From NCBI GenBank assembly GCA_964016885.1, contig OZ024760.1, forward strand, positions 34,038,001 to 34,102,000: DNA of 64,000 nt. The letters are read 5' to 3'. A program made the translations under genes and the position numbers. The notes below the pieces were generated by a model, which saw nothing but the letters and a program-made list of their open reading frames with translations, was not told the origin of the DNA and made no database searches. Positions within the stretch are counted from its first letter, which is position 1, and each line of letters opens with the position of its first letter. Source of the DNA: Eledone cirrhosa. Lineage: Eukaryota. Positions 2,426-56,846 of the stretch are shown here, piece after piece.

Positions 2426-2780
2426 GTACCAGTGATGTACTGGGTAATTGGTGGCCTTGTGCCAAAAGTAGAAACGATTATTATTATTATTATTATTATT
2501 GCATTATTATTATTATTATTATGGATAATTGCTGGCCTTGTGCCAAACGTAGAAACAATTATTTTATTATTTTACTTTGCTTTTCCTCCTTTTTTTCTGT
2601 TTGCTATAATCTTAATCTCTCTATTTTCAGTTTCACGGATTAATCATCAGATTTCAAAGAGACCCCCCCCCCCCCCCCTCCATCATTGCAAGAAATACTT
2701 TGAAGAATTATGCCAGGAAAAGGGAAGGCTATTAATTGTGACATTTCCAGTCGATCCTCCATGGAAACATAGCTGACAAA

Positions 2781-3884
2781 ATGAGAATATTAACGATGTA
2801 TTTACTTAAAATAATGTCATCTCTCCGCTTTGGAATCCAGAAGATAGCCACACTTCTCTGTCTCTTTATTGTGGTTGCATTCATGTTTATGAATACACAT
2901 TTTCCTGAAAATTCCAACACAGCCAGACGTGTAAGCCAGCGTCTGGTGATAAAGGCAAAATCTCGTCACCACTGGAACAGAACTATTTCATGGAATCTTG
3001 AAGAGTTGTTTGTCAAGAAAGTTATACAACCTCCTTGTTGCCCTCATTGCTTGTTTGTCATTTTAATCATTTCTGCTCCCAGCAATGTTGAAAAGCGGAT
3101 GGCGATTCGCCAGACCTGGTGCCAGCCCCCAAATTCCTCCAGACATACTGGAGAAGGAAATGGTGTTGGTATTAATGCTGCAGTTGGTCTAAAGACATGG
3201 CAATGTGTGTTTCTTATTGGCCAGACAAGTGATGTGAAAACAAAGTTAGCAATCAACCAAGAAATGGAAGTTCATCGTGATATCCTGATCGGGAGTTATA
3301 TTGATACATACCGTAATTTAACGTTGAAAGTTTTCCATGGTTTCTATTGGGTCCACAGCAGTTGCAAACCTAAGTTTGTTTTAAAGACAGATGATGACTG
3401 TTTCGTAAACACTCACCTTCTCTATCGCTTGCTCACCAATTCCAACAGCAGCATAGAAAAACAGAGGATTTATGTGGGCGATATAAACTTGAGTCTCAAG
3501 AAAAGGATTGTATTGAGAAATACTGACAGTAAATGGAAAGTAAAAAAAGCTGAATATGGTAAACGGTACTACCCTCCTTATGCCCGTGGATTGGGTTATA
3601 TATTGTCATCAGATGTCATCACCAAAATGTTGGACATTAGTAAATACTTTAAACCTTTTCCCAATGAGGATGCTTTCGTTGGTATGATTTTGAATTTCTT
3701 GGGTATAGCTCCAATTAAAAGCCAGAGGTTTACAAGCCTTCCCACTGGTTGGACGATATGTAACTTTCTCTACCTTCTCGTCATACATAACATTTCTCCA
3801 GCTTCACAGAAAACTCTTGAGAATAAAACGAACCACGCTCCTTTGATTTGCAAAGGGCAGCATTTCATAACCACATGGAACTGA
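2781..3884 (+). CDS. Beta-1,3-galactosyltransferase / GT31 family type II membrane glycosyltransferase, 367 aa, single coding exon
   Basis: N-terminal TM (IATLLCLFIVVAFMFM) and GT31 motifs LIISAP..R.AIRQTW, VFLIG, DTYRNLTLK, FVLKTDDDCFVN (DxD), YPPY..GLGYILS, EDAFVG. A polypyrimidine/CAG acceptor ends at 2630 upstream. Confidence 0.93.
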   Translation: MRILTMYLLKIMSSLRFGIQKIATLLCLFIVVAFMFMNTHFPENSNTARRVSQRLVIKAKSRHHWNRTISWNLEELFVKKVIQPPCCPHCLFVILIISAPSNVEKRMAIRQTWCQPPNSSRHTGEGNGVGINAAVGLKTWQCVFLIGQTSDVKTKLAINQEMEVHRDILIGSYIDTYRNLTLKVFHGFYWVHSSCKPKFVLKTDDDCFVNTHLLYRLLTNSNSSIEKQRIYVGDINLSLKKRIVLRNTDSKWKVKKAEYGKRYYPPYARGLGYILSSDVITKMLDISKYFKPFPNEDAFVGMILNFLGIAPIKSQRFTSLPTGWTICNFLYLLVIHNISPASQKTLENKTNHAPLICKGQHFITTWN

Positions 3885-8878: not shown

Positions 8879-9774
8879 TTGCGAGGAAATGTATGATATG
8901 TAAGGTAAACCCCCGGATAAACTGTAAAACTAGAAACGTAGTCTATAGCATAAGATGTACAGAGGGTACTTGCAGAAACATGACAACAACATACATAGGT
9001 GAGACAGCTCGTAGCATAGGTGAAAGGATAGACCAACACTAAAAGGACGAAAAAACGGTTCAGTACTATACGAACAGGCTAGTTCAGTACTATACGAACA
9101 TGACGGTAACATAGACAACATAGAAATTAGAATAATATCTAAACATAGAAATGACCCAGCAGATAGGCAAATCAGAGAGGCCAGTGAAATAGAAATTAGA
9201 AGACCAAGACTAAACAGAAAGAATGAATGGAATAACAACAACACCCAAACAAACAACACTGACCTAAGAGAAGTATAAATAAGTAAATAAAATAAAATAA
9301 AAAATAAATAAATAAATAAATAAATACACATGCACAATAACAACAAGCACATAAACACACACTAGTCACCCATCACACAGCAAACAAAACACTATACACA
9401 CACGCAAACGCATGCGCAAAGAAGACAAAATAAAATAAACAAACAAGCAAATAAATAAATAAATATATAGACAGACTGAATAAAAATGGCGTAGACATAC
9501 AATACAACAGGAGGAAACGATAACACCACTGACGATGTTGCAGATGTGCAATGAAAGATTTATGATAAACTATATATATGTGTTTGTGTCTATATTGTAT
9601 CTGTATTATTTTTGACCGTCGGTCAGTCAATGGCAACATTGAGGACCGATTAAGTTAGATTACCGATATAAAAGACACAGAAGCGAGAAACGAAAACCAA
9701 CCAAACAGTGAGTGTGTTCTGTTATTAATTCTGGCAATATTACACAAATATGACCCTCCCCAAGTATAACAATA

Positions 9775-10223: not shown

Positions 10224-10997
10224 CTTAATATGTGTGTGTGTGTGTGTATGTATGTGTAAATAAATAAATATATATATGTGTGTGTGTGTGTGCGTGTGTG
10301 TGTATGTACATATATATAGATAAGCAAAACTTTCCACAGTAATCGAAAATTAAGTGGAAATATACAGAAATATTAAAAGAATGTTTAATCCAACAAAAGA
10401 AATATTTCTATATTTGTTAGATCAGAAATATTTATTACAAATATTTATACAAGTTTCGATATATTGGTTCATTATGAAAGGATGGGAGGCAAAGTTGTCC
10501 TCTACGGGATTTGATCTGACAGGACAGAGAACCAATACTGCAAAGTATTCTATTCACTGTTCTAACGGTTCTGCCAATTCTCCGACTACCATAAACGAAA
10601 TCGATCGAACGATTGAATCGAATCGATCGACAAGATCCCAAATCCCATTCACTTACCAATTGGGGTGGAACTCATCAAATTGAACCAAGGAAACAATGTT
10701 TATATAAAAACAAATAACGAAACGAAATTAAATTACGTTTCGTTTGTAACTCACTTTTGTATGACTGACGCTTAAACAATTAAGTTAAGAATGTACATCC
10801 ACATATGTATACTGAAATACTAGTATGCATATGAATACACACACGTGTACATATGTAGATGTACCGAGTTTTTCACTGGACACTTTACTGTGAGTGTCCA
10901 GCTATTCTGTATGTAAACACACAGACAAACCGGTTTTTAGAGTCATACTGGTTATCGAGGAAACACCTTTCCTCTATTCTCCAGAAAACCAGACAGG

Positions 10998-11042
10998 AAT
11001 ATTGGACTAGTTTCGATGTTGTTACATCTCATCAGCAATATT
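10998..11042 (-). ncRNA. Minimal type I hammerhead ribozyme
   Basis: AAUAUUG-CUGAUGA-GAUG uaacaa CAUC-GAAA-CUAG-UC^-CAAUAUU on the minus strand. Confidence 0.85.
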
Positions 11043-12001
11043 TACCTATCTTCCGGCCTTTCTAGAGAATCGTAAAAGCACATATCGTTATATGCTTTTT
11101 CTATGAAAATTAGTAGTGGGCAGACTAATTTGCATAGAGCGTGAGTACGTACCGGTTCAGCGGAGACGATAAAAACAAATAACGAAACGAAATTAAATTT
11201 CGTTTCGTTTGTAACTCACTTTTGTATGACTGACGCTTAAACAATTAAGTTAAGAATGTACATCCACATATGTATACTGAAATACTAGTATGCATATGAA
11301 TACACACACGTGTACATATGTAGATGTACCGAGTTTTTCACTGGACACTTTACTGTGAGTGTCCAGCTATTCTGTATGTAAACACACAGACAAACCGGTT
11401 TTTAGAGTCATACTGGTTTTCGAGGAAACACCTTTCCTCTATTCTCCAGAAAGTCAGACAGGAATAGTGGACTAGTTTCGATGTTGTTACATCTCAACAG
11501 CAATATTTACCTATCTTCCGGCCTTTCTAGAAAATCGTAAAAGCACATATCGTTATATGCTTTTTCTATGAAAATTAGTAGTGGGCAGACTAATTTGGAG
11601 AATAGAGGAAAGGTGTTTCCTCGAAAACCAGTATGACTCTAAAAACCGGTTTGTCTGTGTGTTTACATACAGAATAGCTGGACACTCACAGTAAAGTGTC
11701 CAGTGAAAAACTCGGTACATCTACATATGTACACGTGTGTGTATTCATATGCATACTAGTATTTCAGTATACATATGTGGATGTACATTCTTAACTTAAT
11801 TGTTTAAGCGTCAGTCATACAAAAGTGAGTTACAAACGAAACGAAATTTAATTTCGTTTCGTTATTTGTTTTTATCGTCTCCGCTGAACCGGTACGTACT
11901 CACGCTCTATGCAAATTAGTCTGCCCACTACTAATTTTCATAGAAAAAGCATATAACGATATGTGCTTTTACGATTCTCTAGAAAGGCCGGAAGATAGGT
12001 A

Positions 12002-12046
12002 AATATTGCTGATGAGATGTAACAACATCGAAACTAGTCCAATATT
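12002..12046 (+). ncRNA. Minimal type I hammerhead ribozyme
   Basis: AAUAUUG-CUGAUGA-GAUG uaacaa CAUC-GAAA-CUAG-UC^-CAAUAUU; 7-bp stem I; predicted cleavage after 12039. Confidence 0.87.
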
Positions 12047-12311
12047 CCTGTCTGGCTTTCTGGAGAATAGAGGAAAGGTGTTTCCTCGATAACCAGTATG
12101 ACTCTAAAAACCGGTTTGTCTGTGTGTTTACATACAGAATAGCTGGACACTCACAGTAAAGTGTCCAGTGAAAAACTCGGTACATCTACATATGTACACG
12201 TGTGTGTATTCATATGCATACTAGTATTTCAGTATACATATGTGGATGTACATTCTTAACTTAATTGTTTAAATGTTTATATATATATATATATAAATAT
12301 ATATGTATATA

Positions 12312-12570: not shown

Positions 12571-12991
12571 TTGTTTGTGTGCGTATCAAATCGATCTACA
12601 AGTTCCCAGAGTGAGGTGGAACTCGTAAAATCGGACCAAGGAAACAATGTTCCCATTGTTAGTATTACTACCCACCGCAACTCCTGGCAGAAGGAAAGAA
12701 ATAACAATCAACAATTCCATCATTTTTACATTTTATTTAAAAAATAGAAAATTTTACGCAGCAAACAAATTTTGCATCACTTAAAAATAATAAAACTGTT
12801 TACTGAATTATCAGTGCAGATGGACGGAGTCATTTTACACTGAGGTGTGATTGTCATTAAAATGGTATCGCCCGAATAGTTCTCTCTTCAGCGTCCAACA
12901 CAAAGTTAACCCTTGGTTCTCCTTAAAAAAAATATATTGTTTATAATTTAACCGGTTCGCGCGTATCATACAAACCGGAGTCCATGAAACC

Positions 12992-14384: not shown

Positions 14385-15855
14385 TCTCTCATTACCATAT
14401 TTCTAATGAAAGACACTGTCTATGTCATTAATCCTTTCATTACCATATTTATAATGACATAGACAGTGTCTTTCATTGGAAATATGGTAATGAAAGGATT
14501 AATGACATAGTCAGTGTCTTTCATAGAAATATGGCAATGAAAGGATTAATGACATAGACACTGTCTATGTCATTAACCCTTTCATTGCCATATTACTAAT
14601 GAAAGACACTGTCTATGTCATTAACCCTTTCATTACCATATTTCTGATGAAAGACACTGTCTATGTCATTAACCCTTTCATTACCATATTTCTAATGAAA
14701 GACACTGTCTATGTCATTAACCCTTTCATTACCATATTACTAATGAAAGACACTGTCTATGTCATTAACCCTTTCATTACCATATTTCTGATGAAAGACA
14801 CTGTCTATGTCATTAACCCTTTCATTACCATATTTCTAATGAAAGACACTGTCTATGTCATTAACCCTTTCATTACCATATTTCTAATGAAAGACACTGT
14901 CTATGTCATTAACCCTTTCATTACCATATTTCTAATGAAAGACACTGTCTATGTCATTAACCCTTTCATTACCATATTTCTAATGAAAGACACTGTCTAT
15001 GTCATTAACCCTTTCATTACCATATTTCTAATGAAAGACACTGTCTATGTCATTAACCCTTTCATTACCATATTTCTAATGAAAGACACTGTCTATGTCA
15101 TTAACCCTTTCATTACCATATTTCTGATGAAAGACACTGTGTATGTCATTAACCCTTTCATTACCATATTTCTAATGAAAGACACTGTCTATGTCATTAA
15201 CCCTTTCATTACCATATTCCTAATGAAAGACACTGTCTATGTCATTAACCCTTTCATTACCATATTTCTAATGAAAGACACTGTCTATGTCATTAACCCT
15301 TTCATTACCATATTCCTAATGAAAGACACTGTCTATGTCATTAACCCTTTCATTACCATATTTCTAATGAAAGACACTGTCTATGTCATTAACCCTTTCA
15401 TTACCATATTTCTAATGAAAGACACTATCTATATCATTAACCCTTTCATTACCATATTCCTAATGAAAGACACTGTCTATGTCATTAACCCTTTCATTAC
15501 CATATTTCTAATGAAAGACACTGTCTATGTCATTAACCCTTTCATTACCATATTCCTAATGAAAGACACTGTCTATGTCATTAACCCTTTCATTACCATA
15601 TTTCTAATGAAAGACACTGTCTATGTCATTAACCCTTTCATTACCATATTTCTAATGAAAGACACTATCTATATCATTAACCCTTTCATTACCATATTCC
15701 TAATGAAAGACACTGTCTATGTCATTAACCCTTTCATTACCATATTTCTAATGAAAGACACTGTCTATGTCATTAACCCTTTCATTACCATATTCCTAAT
15801 GAAAGACACTGTCTATGTCATTAACCCTTTCATTACCATATTTCTAATGAAAGAC
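14385..15855. repeat. 48-bp minisatellite (about 30 units, with about two inverted units near 14455-14560)
   Basis: Unit TTAACCCTTTCATTACCATATTTCTAATGAAAGACACTGTCTATGTCA. Confidence 0.95.
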
Positions 15856-16064
15856 ATTACATGTGATTTTGAAATAAGTTTGGAAAAATTATGAGGTTTA
15901 CAACAAACTTTTTTCATAATTTATCTGGTGTTTGGTACATATCTTAAATATTCTTACATAAAATTATGATGAAAGATTTAAAAATAATTATAAGCACTTT
16001 AGAATAAACGGTTTGGCACCGTATGACTTGAGGGTGGGAGTAGTGTAAGTTGGTAACGAAAGGG
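15825..16064. mobile_element. TTAA-type MITE whose left end equals the 48-bp satellite unit
   Basis: TIR CCCTTTCATTACCA at 15825 and TGGTAACGAAAGGG ending at 16064, flanked by TTAA and TTAG. Confidence 0.6.
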
Positions 16065-20350: not shown

Positions 20351-20587
20351 TATACATACACTTATATAAATGTAAGTATGTATGAATGTATACCTACATA
20401 CATATATGTATACAGACGTACAGTAATATGTATATATATACATACATGCACACATATATATATATGCACGTATCGGTTTACCGAATATTTATTTTAATGC
20501 TCGGTTTGTTTGTAAACAAACAGCCCGAACTACGCCGTACAGTGTTTAGGCAACCACGTCACCTTTTTGTTCAACACTGACACAGGA

Positions 20588-20630
20588 ACGATGTACTAGT
20601 TTCAAGCTTATTAGCTATCGTCAGCATCGT
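20588..20630 (-). ncRNA. Minimal type I hammerhead ribozyme
   Basis: ACGAUG-CUGACGA-uAGCU aaua AGCUu-GAAA-CUAG-UA^-CAUCGU, inside a roughly 320-bp (TA)-flanked element (20466-20790). Confidence 0.78.
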
Positions 20631-22479
20631 ATACCTTCCTGCCAGATGGTTGAACGTCTGAAAGTATATACTTTCCTTATTCATATTAACGGTTGAGCAG
20701 CCTAATTCGCATATCGAGTGAGTTTAGTTGGCCGGGCGCACCGAAAACGATAAATGGAATAGAATGAAACGAAATTTCATTTCTCACTCTTAGTACTTAC
20801 ATATATACTTATATATATATACTTATATACACATCGATCGTGCCTCGAGCTGGTCGCCATAGAAACGATTGTAATATGTCGAATAAATTCTATTCGTCGC
20901 AACACTGATTCTCTTTATTTTCTGTGATATCATACTCTGGTCTATGAGACCATCGAGTGCTCATACGGCCTACCGCATACGGATGCTTTAAGCATCCAAC
21001 ACCAATTACTTATATATATATATATATTTATTTATTTAAAAATATGCTCAGCGTTTACGAATTCAAATTACAACATCATTAATAAAGAAAGAGGGAGAAA
21101 AAAGAAAGAGAGAGAAAAAAAAGAGAAAAATGAACCAACATCATAACCTTTTATATTTTATATTTTCTCTCTTTCATTTTCTATCTTTCTATTTCTTTCC
21201 CTAAATTTATTTCATCTCTTACATTATATCTTATCGTATTATTTTCACTCCTAATATAACTTACAATTAATTAATTGATTAATTATTTATTTAATTAATT
21301 TATTAATTTAACTAATACATATATGAATATATTTAACATTTTTCATGTTTATACCATCATATCTCTATATTTTAACCACCAACACCACAACTACTCTCAA
21401 TAATCATAGTATGTTTACTTTTCACATATCAAATTTTTTTATTTATTTTTTATCATATTTTGTATTATTTTTATCATCCTCCTTTTAACTTATTTATTAA
21501 CATTTATTCATTTATTATTATTACCTTTATTATTTTTTTTTTCTATTTTTCTTTTTTTTCTTTTTCCTTATCTTTTATCTTTTTTCTCTCTGTCTTTTTT
21601 CTCTATATCTTTCTCTTTTTTTCTTCTTTCTCTCTTTTTTCTCTTTTTTTCTCTCTCTTTCTTTTTTTTCTATCTCTCTTTCTTTATTAACGATGTTGTA
21701 ATTTGAATTCGTAAACGCTGAGTATATTTTTAACAGTCCCTTCTGATGATCTGGTTAAGCTAACAGCGTATTTAAAATTGAGTGGCACAGCTTCAAGTGT
21801 TCAGCAATTTTTAGACAACTTAATCAGTGAAACAATCGTTAATACTGTAAATAAAACCCCTTTTTTGTACTGTTGAGCATGTTATTCTTCACTCTTTCAA
21901 TATTATTACTCCAAGATAAACTTACATAGGAATTCCCGAGAAATCACAAACTCGCCACCTACGGAAACCCCTTGTTGAGTCAAACAACGCCGTACGCTAA
22001 AACTATCCACAATACGGAGAGTATTCACAACCTCTAATTGGATTACCTATAACGATATTATGTTATCCCTTATATTTATTTATTTATATATATACTTATA
22101 TATAATAAAATATAAAAGAAAAATGAACACAGACATATACATATATGTGTTCAAATCGTAAGGGACCGGATTCGCTCAGGTGAATAGTTGTCTATAGTTA
22201 GTATTCTTTTCACCTTAGCGAATCTGGTTCCTTACGATTTGAACACATATATGTATATGTCTGTGTTCGTTTTTCTTTTATATTCTATTATAATATACGG
22301 CTCGGAAATATCTCTTTCTTAGAGCTATTTTATTGTAAGAGACTATTTTGAGTTCCTAACTCAATATATACCTTTGATTAAGAGAAGTGGGGGCGGGGCG
22401 GATAAAAAGAAGGAAATCGTGTGAATTAGTAATTCTGATATCTCGTCTATTGTCTTTGATAACCTTACACAATATAGCT

Positions 22480-27700: not shown

Positions 27701-27717
27701 AGTGTGTGGTTATTTAC

Positions 27718-28228
27718 CTGATGTGTATGAGACTATAAACATAACAACACCCATCGCAGTTCCAGTGAAACCCAAACCAGACGAATACTTTTCCGGTCCC
27801 AGCGTTTCCATGGCGACCGTCGTGTAGACCGCTGTTACCATGCCAATGGCGACGCCGAGGAATGCCGATATACCGAACAGACTTTCCAAGGTGGAGAAGA
27901 GCGGGAACATGGCCAACGCCAACCCGGCCACTACGACACTCACTGATTGGACGTCCCAAGCGGTCACCGTTTGGTATGCCATGATTGCCATAGCAACAAC
28001 ACCTCCAGGTATTGACCCTATGCCGTACATGAAAAGCATATTAGCACCGTCGTCTTCATCGATGCCCTTCTCGCGGGCATAGTCCACCATGAAGGTGACG
28101 AAAATCAAGAGACTGCTGTAGACAAAACAGGTGACCAACACGTAATACAAGAAAGTGAGGTTCTTCAAGATGGAGACATCAAACAGTTGGTCCGGAAGCA
28201 GTTTTTTACTCTTCAGAATCGGTTTCTC
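27718..28228 (-). CDS. SLC16/MCT-like transporter, exon D (short loop, TM7-TM11)
   Basis: EKPILKSKKLLPDQLFDVSILKNLTF...DYAREKGI...LGPEKYSSGLG...SYTSG; ccatcag acceptor and G|GTAAAT donor; phase 0-1. Confidence 0.92.
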
Positions 28229-28334
28229 CTGATGGAAAAAACACAGAAAGAAAACATTTTAAAAAATCAAAAACAAACGAAAAAATAGAGAGCGAGTGAA
28301 TAAAGTGAGAGAGAGAGAGCGTATGTGTACTGAT

Positions 28335-42670: not shown

Positions 42671-42694
42671 TATATATATATATATATATATAGT

Positions 42695-43212
42695 TAAAAG
42701 AATAGAGGTGTAACACACAAGTTATTATATATTGGTAAACGGAATAGAAAATGCTGACAAATTGTTCACAGTTGAAAAATGGTTTAATTAGGAATAAAAG
42801 AGTATTAGTGATTGTATTCAGTTGTGGTTTTAAGTTTTTAAGTTTTTACCGGTTGCGCATTTCTAAATGCTTTTCAAAAATAATTTTGAGATAGAGTGTC
42901 CGTGCTGTTTGCTCTGATCTGATTAGTTTTGGGAATTCTACCTGTTTTTATGTTAAAAAAGTGGCTCCAGCGTTATTTTTGTGTTACAAAAATGCTTGTG
43001 GTCAAAACAATTTTGATTGGTCGGTAGAGGTCATGTGAATGTAAAAAGTTAATTTTGCGCCAAGACTGTTTTTATGTTAAAAAAGTGGCTCCAGCAAAAA
43101 TTCTTGGTCAAAACAATTTTGATTGGTCGGTAGAGGTCATGTGGATAAAAAATTGGTTTTGCGCCAAGATTGAGAAATGACTCTTTCACAACAAATATGT
43201 GTGTGTATGTGT

Positions 43213-43296
<84 letters not shown>

Positions 43297-43365
43297 TAGT
43301 AGTAGTAAGGTGTTCGATGCTGCGACAATGGCCAGCAGCGATGTGTGTCAAATGGCTATTAAGAT

Positions 43366-43402
<37 letters not shown>

Positions 43403-43570
43403 GCAGAGTAATTCGATGGTCAGTAAGAATGTGTCTGAAAGCAATGGGGGGTATTTTAGCATGTCAAAAGATATTTTTCAGCTTTTGTCTTATACGGAGA
43501 AGTGCGTGTGTGTGTGTGTGTGTGTATAAGTCTCTTTGTATGTTGATGTACGCGTGTGTATGTGTTTGTG

Positions 43571-43615
<45 letters not shown>

Positions 43616-44120
43616 ACCAGTATTTTTTTCCCCCTGGTAAAATGGTGTACATTATTCGATTTTTTCAGTAACATTTTTTATCCAATTTTTTATCCACATG
43701 TCCTCTACCGACCAATCAAAATTGTTTTGACCAAGAATTTTTGCTGGAGCCACTTTTTTAACATAAAAAACAGTCTTGGCGCAAAATCAACTTTTTACAT
43801 TCACATGACCTCTACCGACCAATCAAAATTGTTTTGACCACAAGCATTTTTGCAACACAAAAATAACGCTGGAGCCACTTTTTAAACATAAAAACAGGTA
43901 GAATTCCCAAAACTAATCAGATCAGAGCAAACAGCACGGACACTCTATCTCAAAATTATTTTTGAAAAGCATTTAGAAATGCGCAACCGGTAAAAACTTA
44001 AAAACTTAAAACCACAACTGAATACTAACCCATACAATTACTAATACTCTTTTATTCCTAATTAAACCATTTTTCAACTGTGAACAATTTGTCAGCATTT
44101 TCTATTCCGTTTACCAATAT
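42695..44120. mobile_element. Inverted pair of a roughly 440-bp PLE-type unit separated by a (GT)n-rich spacer; variant hammerhead-like motif in each arm
   Basis: 42730-43155 is the reverse complement of about 43680-44120; motif UUGAAAA-GCAUUU ag AAAUGC-GCAA-CCGG-UA at 43959-43995. The same family forms the palindrome at 56340-56740. Confidence 0.75.
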
Positions 44121-44586
44121 ATATATATATATATATAATTGTTTCTAATTTTGGCACAAGGCCAGCAATTATCCAGTCTATTACTGGTACTTTATTTTAT
44201 CGACCCCGTAAGGATGAAAGGCAAAGTTAACCTCGGCAGGATTTGAACTTAGATCATAAAGGGACGTAACTCTATGCTTCAAAGCATGGCGTCCGACTCT
44301 ACCGATACTGCCAATCCACCGCCTTTATATATATATATATATAATGCAAAGGAAAGGTAATGTCTAGACACATGTATCCACACCATGACTGTTTGTAAGA
44401 ATTTCACAGGTGTAATGGTATAAGAAGATCTGATTATATATATATATATGAGAGAGAGAGAGAGGGCGGGGACCAAACGCATGGCATAACTTGTGGACTG
44501 AGGACAGAATCACGTTAGATAAAATTTGCTGGAATTTTGAAACATTAAAATCCGAACATTTTGGGGGGATGAGATTTAATTCTTAC

Positions 44587-53769: not shown

Positions 53770-54590
53770 TAATAAATTTATAAATTTAGGAATTTATAAA
53801 TTTCCGGTTGGTTGGTTGGTTCCACAACCAGATGATTGTTTATATATTGTCAAAGTTCTTTCGTCACACATTCTGTGACCTCTTCAGTGACGGGAATCTT
53901 TTCTTTGTTTTTGTGCATTTCCTTAGTTCTGTCCTACGCCATCTTATTTTTGTGTGGTGTGCTTAGTTTGCGCATGTGTTACATCCGGGTGTCGGTGTGT
54001 GTTTATATTTGTTTATTTATTTGTTTATTTACATGTTACTGGTTGGTTGTTTGTTCTATGTGCGTGTGTGTTTTCATTTTGTCCTTAATTGTAAGTTGTC
54101 ATGTTGCTGTTCCATTCATGTTTTCTATTTAATTTTGGTTGGAGTTCATTTATGTTTATTGCCTCTGTGATTTGTCTAAACATTGCGTCTTTTCTGTGTG
54201 TAGATTCTATTTTTATTTCTATGTTCTCTAATTTACCCTTATGTTCTATTTTAGCATGTTGGTAGAGTACATATGATTCTTTACTATCTTGAAGGTCTCG
54301 CCAGTGTTCATTTATCCGTTCCCCTATACTACGAGCTGTCTCACCTATGTACACTATATTCTTGTCTCTACATTGTCCTTCAGTACATCTTATGCTATAT
54401 ACTACATTTATAGTTTTACAGTTAATATGGGGGCTTACTTTACAGATTATACATTTCTTATCTATACAGGGAGGTCTTTGAGAAGGGTATGTCTTGCTAA
54501 TAAGTGTTTTTATGGAGGTACCTGGTCTTTCTACTATCTTAATATTGAGTGTATGTTTATCTAGGGCCCTTCTAAATTTGTAAGCTAATT
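53770..54590 (-). mobile_element. Penelope-like element fragment (GIY-YIG plus 3' region with a hammerhead-like motif at 53849-53891)
   Basis: [18 protein letters not shown]...[16 protein letters not shown]...RQITEA...LNRKHEW; GUCA-CUGAAGA-gGUCAC..GUGAC-GAAA-GAAC-UU-UGAC. Same family as 8877 and 25005-25345. Confidence 0.82.
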
Positions 54591-54859
54591 CACCTCTAGG
54601 GGTTGTATCGATGACGTATGTATGTTTATTTCAAAAGGATAACCCCCTTCAAAAAGCAGGTAATACATACATCAAAAGGCAACCCTCTTAGAGAGACATA
54701 GAGTGAAAGAGACAGATTAGGAAAACATCTACGAAAATACAGACAAATATAATAATTGTTTCTACTTTTGGCACAAGGCCAGCAAATACCCAGTGTATTC
54801 CTGGTACTTTATTTTATCGACAGACAAATATAATAATGTATGTATCCCACACACTTTTT

Positions 54860-55827: not shown

Positions 55828-56284
55828 TATATATATATAGTTTTTCGAATATTAATAATAACATTCGATTCGTTTGCAATTATGCAAAGAGCAAGAATGA
55901 AGTGTTCATTCTACTGACATGGCTATAAAATTGAGGCTTGTTTGCATAATTGCAAACGAATAGAATGTTATTATTAATATTCGAAAAACTCAGATTACAT
56001 TTATTGTATTCTGCCATGTAGAGCGAAATTTTCTTTATATATATATATATTTCGGGGATTTGATTCTGACTTAGGGTTCTTTCTATTTAATTGCCAACCT
56101 GTAGGTGTTGTTTTCCATACAGTAACGGTTAAACCCACATGTAATAATTCTTTACACACATCTCACTGTGTAACACACTTCTCTCTGTGTGATATATTTG
56201 TATTTGAGCTCAGTTGAAAATTGTCTGTTCTTCTTTGAGCTAATATTATTACTGTGAACTGCGGAATACTCTAATTCCGATCCT

Positions 56285-56846
<562 letters not shown>

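What the first reader, a model, noticed from the sequence alone, without database searches (positions are those of the whole stretch)
10705..12272. 465-bp retrozyme-like array (direct-direct-inverted-inverted) with a textbook hammerhead
Seen: a non-coding 465-bp unit repeated in tandem, then inverted at about 11597. Hammerheads at 10998-11042 and 12002-12046 have perfect cores; the copy at 11463-11507 has CUGUUGA and a stem I mismatch. Copies are nearly identical, so the array is young. A related roughly 45-bp motif (GGTGGAACTC...ACCAAGGAAACAATGTT) lies on both sides (about 10663-10700 and 12615-12652). Established: transcripts of tandem hammerhead units can self-process into unit-length linear or circular RNAs (retrozymes), and tandem-plus-inverted geometry is typical of PLE integration. 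Inference: a recently active non-autonomous element that may produce a circular RNA of about 465 nt.
Basis: partly seen in the sequence, partly recalled or inferred. Interest (0 to 1): 0.7.

Follow-up and report, generated by a model that had tools for sequence, protein, structure and literature searches.

The report
Two-armed Penelope-inserted hammerhead retrozyme
This is one insertion of a young, non-coding jumping repeat with a predicted self-cutting RNA motif; it and most sister copies examined sit as back-to-back arms with one long and one short end, the footprint of Penelope-type jumping genes, whose enzyme likely copied the RNA from both sides of a DNA break.

Summary
The repeat and its three hammerheads are real. 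The flanking 45-bp motif is unrelated target DNA. The genome holds 1,630 exact copies of the hammerhead core. Of 63 loci examined, 47 have two classifiable outer ends, and all 47 pair one long end (unit nt ~301) with one short end (~224-233). Most sit in (TA)n with 12-13-bp duplications. A young coding Penelope-like element (PLE) here shows the same pairing (5 of 5). No coding element sharing the unit was found. Best reading: a non-LTR retrozyme mobilised by a PLE enzyme that primes at two fixed RNA sites, one per DNA end. The 465-nt circle is unproven: neither arm here has two intact hammerheads, three loci point to uncut multimer templates and seven to a single-unit bottleneck. Cleavage and expression are untested. 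Retrozymes and this PLE geometry are each published; their combination was not in the papers I read. This scan has noted it for other retrozyme families of this genome.

The parts
10695..10706 (+). Left copy of the 12-bp target-site duplication; its last 3 nt also match the element's long end
10704..11597 (-). Left arm, 894 nt (1.9 units), RNA sense on the minus strand; outer 3' end at unit nt 301 (long end). Unit nt 1 = first base after the predicted cleavage site
10704..10771 (-). 68-nt 'tail', present on the left arm only (between the short and the long start site)
10998..11042 (-). Type I hammerhead, intact core; predicted cleavage between 11005 and 11004
11463..11507 (-). Hammerhead with a core change (11497) and a stem I mismatch (11467); predicted impaired
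11596..11597 (.). Junction of the two 5'-truncated arms, 2-nt microhomology
11596..12272 (+). Right arm, 677 nt (1.5 units); outer 3' end at unit nt 233 (short end)
11908..11942 (+). Hairpin 30-65 nt 3' of the long start site; its 5' strand holds ATGCAAAT (11909-11916), kept in sister family B and two more distant hammerhead units; candidate protein-binding or promoter element
   Evidence: role inferred
12002..12046 (+). Type I hammerhead, intact core; predicted cleavage after 12039; stem I extends past a UA bulge (11994-12052)
12272..12283 (+). Right copy of the target-site duplication, running into the (TA)n microsatellite (to about 12570) whose edge was the target
10661..10700 (.). Not part of the element: end of an older dispersed repeat (second copy 12612-12651)

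Best explanation
This is one insertion of a non-coding hammerhead repeat family (a non-LTR retrozyme) whose copies end at two fixed sites about 70 nt apart, and a Penelope-type enzyme borrowed from another element likely wrote it in by copying the RNA from both ends of a staggered DNA break. Shown: two arms joined 5' to 5'; one long and one short outer end; a 12-13-bp duplication; (TA)n targets; short microhomology at the joint; no reading frame. Inferred steps: (1) a GIY-YIG endonuclease/reverse transcriptase, probably a dimer, nicks both strands 12-13 bp apart in AT-rich DNA; (2) each 3' end primes reverse transcription inside the RNA, one at unit nt ~301 and one at ~224-233, in a coupled way, so that each insertion gets one of each; (3) both enzymes copy towards the 5' end through hammerhead sites and stop at unrelated points; (4) host end-joining links the two cDNAs; (5) some arrays later grow by unequal exchange. 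The template would be an RNA with continuous units: an uncut multimer at some loci, possibly a single-unit circle at others. This copy is probably a dead end for circle production.
For: 47 of 63 loci have two classifiable ends, all long+short, none long+long or short+short (41 from BLAST ends, one of them adjusted by eye, and 6 from tiny or jumped second arms read by eye). In the position-ordered sample from one chromosome 21 of 28 loci are of this form. 74 of 82 ends of the 41 loci abut TA-rich flanks. Duplications at the four non-microsatellite targets are 12, 12, 13 and 12 bp (window, L043, L064, L122). Joints: overlap of 3 nt or more in 13 of 32 without inserted bases, about 6% expected by hand calculation; 6 of 38 have inserted bases. 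The short-end arm reaches further 5' in 18 of 38, which a fold-back of one cDNA cannot give. Arms of one locus are closer (0.0049) than arms of different loci (0.0163; 0 of 5000 permutations; 36 loci). A young coding PLE of this genome (900-aa frame, median 99.3% identity) has two ends 41-43 nt apart, paired long+short in 5 of 5 two-armed pairs with both ends visible. Sister family B (58% identical; 10,651 exact cores) has its long end at the homologous base. Two internal start sites bounding the tail were shown in vitro for an anole PLE (PMC11167929).
Against: No coding partner that shares sequence with the unit was found, so the enzyme is not identified; only part of the genome's PLE families was seen. 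The tail (68-77 nt) is longer than the 30-40 nt in print, though coding families here reach 41-60 nt. 16 of 63 loci lack two classifiable ends (13 single-ended, 2 irregular, 1 larger than the stretch fetched). One two-armed pair of another PLE family (L076) had two short ends. In vitro the anole enzyme showed no strand preference for either start site, and coupling was not reported in the parts read. The first 35 loci were picked as best matches to a full unit. Cleavage, expression and transposition were not observed.
Confidence: 0.82

Rival explanations
1. Strict retrozyme cycle: the template is always a 465-nt monomer circle released by the hammerhead and copied round and round from two start sites.
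For: 9 variants private to one locus are fixed in all covering units of both arms, in 7 of 36 loci, as a single-unit bottleneck would give. A-to-G makes up 5 of 10 rare fixed changes against 26 of 311 single-unit changes (Fisher p 0.001), as editing of one template molecule would. 5' ends show no overall pile-up at the cleavage site (76 ends, KS p 0.24). The hammerhead stems covary between families A and B. Circles are shown for coral, mussel and axolotl retrozymes (PMC7229834).
Against: At three loci (window, L042, L108) 6 variants mark the same unit, counted from the 3' end, in both arms and are absent from other units; L108 excludes circles of 1-3 units and does not fit the shortest-loop hairpin register. 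At the window and L042 arm-to-arm conversion could give the same pattern, though private changes are not depleted in paired arms (2.0 per kb against 2.2-2.3). A-to-G against T-to-C is only 5 to 2 (p 0.28; all fixed changes 15 to 11). Fixed variants can also come from source arrays already homogenised. In vitro the anole enzyme used uncut RNA; 1 of 9 Xenopus retrozyme dimers cleaved.
Confidence: 0.3
2. The unit is the left-over terminal repeat (pLTR) of a coding PLE, and the arrays are truncated stumps of that element later amplified as a satellite.
For: Ends, tail, duplication and targets are those of PLEs. Li et al. 2026 find 24 of 57 Xenopus retrozyme families similar to known repeats, nearly all PLE ends. 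Period-4 blocks confined to one arm (L046, L047) and shuffled variants in L036 show growth after insertion.
Against: Arms run unit into unit with no coding sequence in all 63 loci. Most insertions carry more than one unit between a single pair of ends. The coding families seen here carry minimal hammerheads of other sequence; this one is the canonical type with loop 2 and a stem I bulge.
Confidence: 0.1
3. The inversion arises by fold-back (self-priming) of one cDNA, or by L1-type twin priming at a chance internal site.
For: Self-priming was proposed for PLE head-to-head repeats (PMC3846280). In this window the right arm is contained in the left.
Against: The short-end arm is the longer-reaching one in 18 of 38 loci; arm lengths are uncorrelated (rho 0.22, p 0.18). 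The second end is a fixed site, and the arms overlap by hundreds of bases.
Confidence: 0.05
4. Assembly artefact (fold-back chimera or collapsed repeat).
For: Long near-perfect inverted repeats are a known assembly hazard (own knowledge). Independent reads across this locus's own junctions were not obtained.
Against: A target duplication bounds the insert; arms carry private changes; 47 loci share the same two ends with different joints; contigs of run X1 show (TA)n joined behind the long-end base 11875 (12 records).
Confidence: 0.02

Closest known systems
Metazoan non-LTR retrozymes (Cervera and de la Pena 2020, PMC7229834: passages and Discussion read; Li, Clavereau and Pollet 2026, 10.64898/2026.07.22.740005: parts 1-3 of 5 read; review PMC7761336: passages)
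   Same: Non-coding tandem units of a few hundred bases, one canonical type I hammerhead each, GC under 50%, strongly self-paired, duplications longer than 4 bp, PLEs in the same genome.
   Different: 465 nt is above the 150-450 bp of the 2020 paper, inside the 51-972 bp of the 2026 preprint. Those texts propose PLE mobilisation from co-occurrence, shared ribozyme type and trees; the parts read do not describe two-armed insertions, fixed ends or tails. They assume a circular template; three loci here argue for uncut multimers. RNA and cleavage were shown there, not here.
Insertions of endonuclease-bearing Penelope-like elements (Craig 2021, PMC8557442, passages; Arkhipova 2013, PMC3846280, passages; Frangieh 2024, PMC11167929, parts 1-2 of 4)
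   Same: Head-to-head inverted 5'-truncated arm, tail on one end only, short duplication (8-10 bp in Adineta), AT-rich or microsatellite targets, two internal start sites, hammerhead upstream of the tail.
   Different: No reading frame; canonical instead of minimal hammerhead; tail 68-77 nt; arms are multi-unit arrays (up to about 17 units in one arm); the one-long-one-short pairing is counted here (47 of 47), where the papers say 'often' or 'optionally' at one end.
Non-autonomous PLE derivatives of Chlamydomonas (MRC1, Chlamys-N; passages of PMC8557442 and PMC9977147)
   Same: Non-coding passengers of PLEs, multicopy head-to-tail insertions, microsatellite targets.
   Different: They resemble their coding partner at the 3' end; no such partner was found here.
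Newt satellite 2 (known to me from passages of PMC7229834 and PMC2220036; the 1994 promoter paper was not held)
   Same: Tandem hammerhead repeat with a weak, palindromic helix III.
   Different: Its snRNA-type promoter could not be matched: host U1 and U2 upstream regions share nothing longer than chance with the unit.

Membership tests
non-LTR retrozyme | Canonical type I hammerhead in each unit | tested here: met
   Core, 7+6-bp stem I with bulge, 4-bp stem II, 2-bp stem III. 6 of 15 pairs change on both sides in 16 distinct hand-picked sequences of families A and B (few independent events; 28 of 500 shuffles reach that pair count; core letters were required by the search pattern). Rfam HH9 hits stay below the cut-off.
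non-LTR retrozyme | Tandem, dispersed, non-coding units, low GC, no LTR structure | tested here: met
   GC 170 of 465 positions.
non-LTR retrozyme | Target duplication longer than 4 bp | tested here: met
   Longest match 11-14 bp in 15 of 43 loci, none in 5, uninformative (long TA runs) in 23.
non-LTR retrozyme | Unit size 150-450 bp (2020) or 51-972 bp (2026) | tested here: inconclusive
   465-470 bp: outside the first range, inside the second; a description more than a definition.
non-LTR retrozyme | Absence of primer-binding site and polypurine tract | not tested
   Not searched for.
non-LTR retrozyme | Self-cleavage of the transcript; unit-length linear and circular RNA in cells | not testable with these tools
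   Needs bench work or stranded raw RNA reads.
'active' retrozyme (Li 2026 criterion), this locus | Two consecutive units with complete hammerheads | tested here: not met
   The left arm's second hammerhead is mutated, the right arm has one. Met at many sister loci.
autonomous Penelope-like element | Reading frame for reverse transcriptase plus GIY-YIG endonuclease | tested here: not met
   None in or joined to the unit in 63 loci.
pLTR of a coding PLE | Sequence shared with the end of a coding family; minimal hammerhead | tested here: not met
   No match to the coding families held; only part of the genome's families was seen.
PLE-type integration (works like) | Inverted 5'-truncated arm with a tail at one end only | tested here: met
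   47 of 47 two-ended loci; coding comparator 5 of 5.
PLE-type integration (works like) | AT-rich or microsatellite targets with a short duplication | tested here: met
L1-type twin priming (definition recalled) | Second priming at a variable internal site; arms copy adjoining, not the same, RNA; poly(A) end | tested here: not met
   Fixed second site, overlapping arms, no poly(A).
newt satellite 2-type snRNA promoter | Elements shared with the host's snRNA gene promoters | tested here: not met
   16 distinct U1/U2 upstream regions: no exact octamer (one near match in 1 of 16) and no shared block with the unit.

The most novel reading that the evidence does not exclude
Penelope enzymes integrate by obligate two-ended, two-site priming: the two ends of a 12-13-bp staggered break are each primed at a different fixed site of the same RNA unit, and hundreds of young retrozyme insertions record this, together with whether the template was an edited monomer circle or an uncut multimer. 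This would be genomic evidence that animal retrozymes are PLE passengers and a rule for the unexplained PLE tail and inversion.
Probability: 0.55. Interest if true: 0.68.

Novelty: new member of a known kind. Interest (0 to 1): 0.47.

Why it matters
How Penelope-like elements make their tandem and inverted insertions and one-sided tail is called unresolved in the papers read, and which enzyme moves animal retrozymes is proposed, not shown. This family gives hundreds of young, short, countable insertions. They turn both questions into tests: one long plus one short start per insertion, 12-13-bp stagger, and marker variants that tell circle from multimer. The element class and the geometry are each known, and the scan has met the same footprint in other families of this genome, so the single locus is ordinary.

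Tried and rejected
Expression: no RNA holder listed for the unit; this says nothing either way. Runs X1-X6 are contigs of unrecorded kind; one X5 contig goes once round the unit (464+31 nt), which tandem DNA gives as well as a circle. A second laying of reads over this locus's junctions gave no result, so independent support for the joint at 11596/7 is open. Coding partner: blastn and a profile of the conserved block over 0.83-1.06 Mb of held DNA, 3' regions of the PLE families held; three cases of a unit downstream of a PLE frame were separate insertions into the (TA)n beside that element's own end (L114 and L115 seen; L069 judged from coordinates only). A Pfam family search of the genome could not be run. 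snRNA-type promoter: rejected. Flanking 45-bp motif as element end or duplication: rejected. Excess mutation in the palindrome's spacer (3 of 137 sites in the window) is not family-wide (p 0.71 without the window). Purifying selection on the core within family A: 0 of 11 core positions against 57 of 406 elsewhere carry inherited variants, too few to count. In-register markers: one search listed 8 variants in 4 loci; one search showed one at L117 to be an alignment artefact and the other to conflict with a neighbouring marker, so L117 was dropped, as was the offset case L106. 5' ends near the cleavage site: 17 of 76 lie in unit nt 1-50, two of which in fact run on past the site; a post-hoc hint only. 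Literature searches for prior description: searches found no paper on two-armed retrozyme insertions or cephalopod retrozymes; the supplements of PMC7229834 and of the 2026 preprint were not readable and may bear on this, as may subscription papers not held.

Full report
What is at the locus. The insertion spans 10704-12272. Its left arm (10704-11597, 894 nt) reads on the minus strand and its right arm (11596-12272, 677 nt) on the plus strand, so the two RNA-sense directions diverge from a 2-nt overlap at 11596-11597. The period is 465 bp. The same 12 bases lie at 10695-10706 and 12272-12283, and the right copy runs into a (TA)n tract: a target duplication at the edge of a microsatellite. Numbering the unit from the base after the predicted cleavage site (12040), the left arm ends at nt 301 and the right at nt 233. 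No frame of 100 codons lies inside. The 45-bp motif on both sides is the end of another, older repeat found at 83-91% identity at 7 other places; from recall it looks like a SINE tail, which I did not test.

The ribozyme. Two copies have an intact core; the third has a core change and a stem I mismatch. Stem I has 7 pairs, a two-base bulge and 6 further pairs; stem II has 4 pairs and a 6-nt loop; stem III has 2 pairs and is palindromic. Rfam scores it as HH9-like but under the cut-off. Cervera and de la Pena 2014 (part 1 of 4 read) describe this as the canonical animal type, which is weak as a monomer and can act as a dimer; PLE ends carry a minimal type instead. A sister family B (466-540-nt unit, 259 of 448 aligned bases identical, 10,651 exact cores) keeps the bulge and loop 2 while stems I and II change on both sides (6 of 15 pairs, 16 distinct sequences chosen from 38). 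These are few independent events. Cleavage is predicted, not shown.

The family. The genome is 3.0 Gb; the best named relative of one of its PLE proteins is from an octopus (65% identity), so the host is probably an octopod. The 32-nt core occurs 1,630 times exactly, the reversed control 0 times. I examined 63 loci: the window, 35 best matches and 27 taken in chromosome order. Copies are 96-100% identical, with ~90% sub-families at L103 and L118.

The insertion rule. 47 loci have two classifiable outer ends. Every one has a long end at nt 299-302 and a short end at nt 224-233; in 6 the second arm is only 7-20 nt or follows a jump and was read by eye. Independent choice at even odds would give this with probability 0.5^47. 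Of the other 16, 13 show one end (9 long, 4 short), 2 are irregular and 1 exceeds the stretch fetched. In the unbiased sample 21 of 28 loci follow the rule. 74 of 82 ends abut TA-rich DNA. Duplications are 12-13 bp where the target is unique; over 43 loci the longest match is 11-14 bp in 15, absent in 5 and uninformative in 23. In 38 simple two-armed loci the joint has an overlap in 27, is blunt in 5 and has inserted bases in 6; 5' ends spread over the unit; the short-end arm reaches further in 18. Family B's long end falls on the homologous base.

Comparator. A young coding PLE of the same genome (900-aa frame, median 99.3% identity) has two ends 41-43 nt apart, paired long with short in 5 of 5 two-armed pairs among 30 loci fetched. 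Other families show it too (window 42680-44122; L042), with one short+short pair at L076. Craig 2021 and Arkhipova 2013 describe the inverted arm and one-sided tail; Frangieh 2024 showed two internal start sites bounding the tail, nicking of both strands, AT-rich targets, a need for RNA 3' of the start sites and a predicted dimer. The retrozyme therefore integrates like a PLE. Its conserved hairpin lies 30-65 nt 3' of the long site, where a binding element would be expected (inference). No coding family held shares its sequence.

Template. Both arms come from one template lineage (36 of 63 loci used). Two kinds of marker occur. Nine private variants in 7 loci are fixed in all units of both arms, and A-to-G is over-represented among rare fixed changes (5 of 10 against 26 of 311), but not significantly against T-to-C: compatible with a single, perhaps edited, circle. 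Against that, 6 variants in 3 loci mark the same unit of both arms only. At L108 two variants sit in the outermost unit of both arms and in none of the three inner units of the longer arm, which excludes circles of 1-3 units and does not match the shortest-loop hairpin; at the window and L042 conversion between arms is an alternative, though no family-wide sign of conversion was seen. Long arrays also show duplications confined to one arm, so they grew after insertion. I read this as mixed templates, with moderate confidence.

This copy. Neither arm has two intact hammerheads, so it is unlikely to release a unit-length RNA. Read-through would form a 677-bp double strand. It is best seen as a record of integration.

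What is known. Retrozymes, their circles and the proposal that PLEs move them are in print. Seven searches found no account of two-armed retrozyme insertions; unread supplements may hold one. Earlier notes of this scan report the same footprint for 310-, 422- and 467-470-nt families of this genome; they are unchecked, and I took from them only the editing test. Verdict: a new member of a known kind with useful mechanistic counts; interest 0.47.

Noticed in passing
window 20359-20834 (-); L101, L112, L031, L127 and others: Sister retrozyme family B, 58% identical to the unit, 10,651 exact hammerhead cores, same long end; one copy lies in this window.
   Followed up: partly
window 11909-11916; L161, L052, L100, L081: The 8-mer ATGCAAAT (octamer, name recalled) lies 62-100 nt upstream of the hammerhead core in families A and B and in two distant units (L161, L052); it also occurs in weak profile hits at L100 and L081. 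Its pairing strand is less conserved. Promoter element or protein-binding hairpin, unexplained.
   Followed up: partly
window 54088-54630 (-) and about 53850-53890: GIY-YIG end of an abundant PLE family (37,559 first-look candidates; frames up to 995 aa) followed by a minimal hammerhead.
   Followed up: partly
window about 9018-9770 (+): 3' end of another PLE family with a minimal hammerhead, ending in (TA)n about 1 kb left of the finding.
   Followed up: no
window 42680-44122, about 55840-56040 and 56320-56740: Three further two-armed insertions in (TA)n with a tail on one arm only, from other families.
   Followed up: partly
L155-L184 (for example G000:C1:64826226): Young coding PLE family with many uninterrupted frames of about 900 aa and two ends 41-43 nt apart.
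   Followed up: partly
L048:5138-8123: Two-orientation array of a 310-nt hammerhead unit about 0.5 kb from the large family A array.
   Followed up: no
L118 (G000:C1:95654000-95663999): Array of at least 21 units of a 469-470-bp sub-family, 90% identical, ends outside the stretch.
   Followed up: no
L125:1972-8274: A truncated unit and its flanking DNA are mirrored about 5.5 kb apart, as part of a larger inverted duplication.
   Followed up: no
window 12017, 12028, 12039 (run X6); L061:6096-6154: A natural variant has a compensatory change in stem II and U instead of C at the cleavage base.
   Followed up: no
L131-L154: Host U1 and U2 genes share short upstream blocks near -260, -90, -57 and -30 but no exact octamer.
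   Followed up: no
window 14386-15870: 48-bp minisatellite of about 29 copies, 93-98% identical.
   Followed up: no
window 2742-3881 (+); 27713-28258 (-): Galactosyltransferase-family frame and a major-facilitator transporter fragment; several LINE-type RT fragments elsewhere.
   Followed up: no
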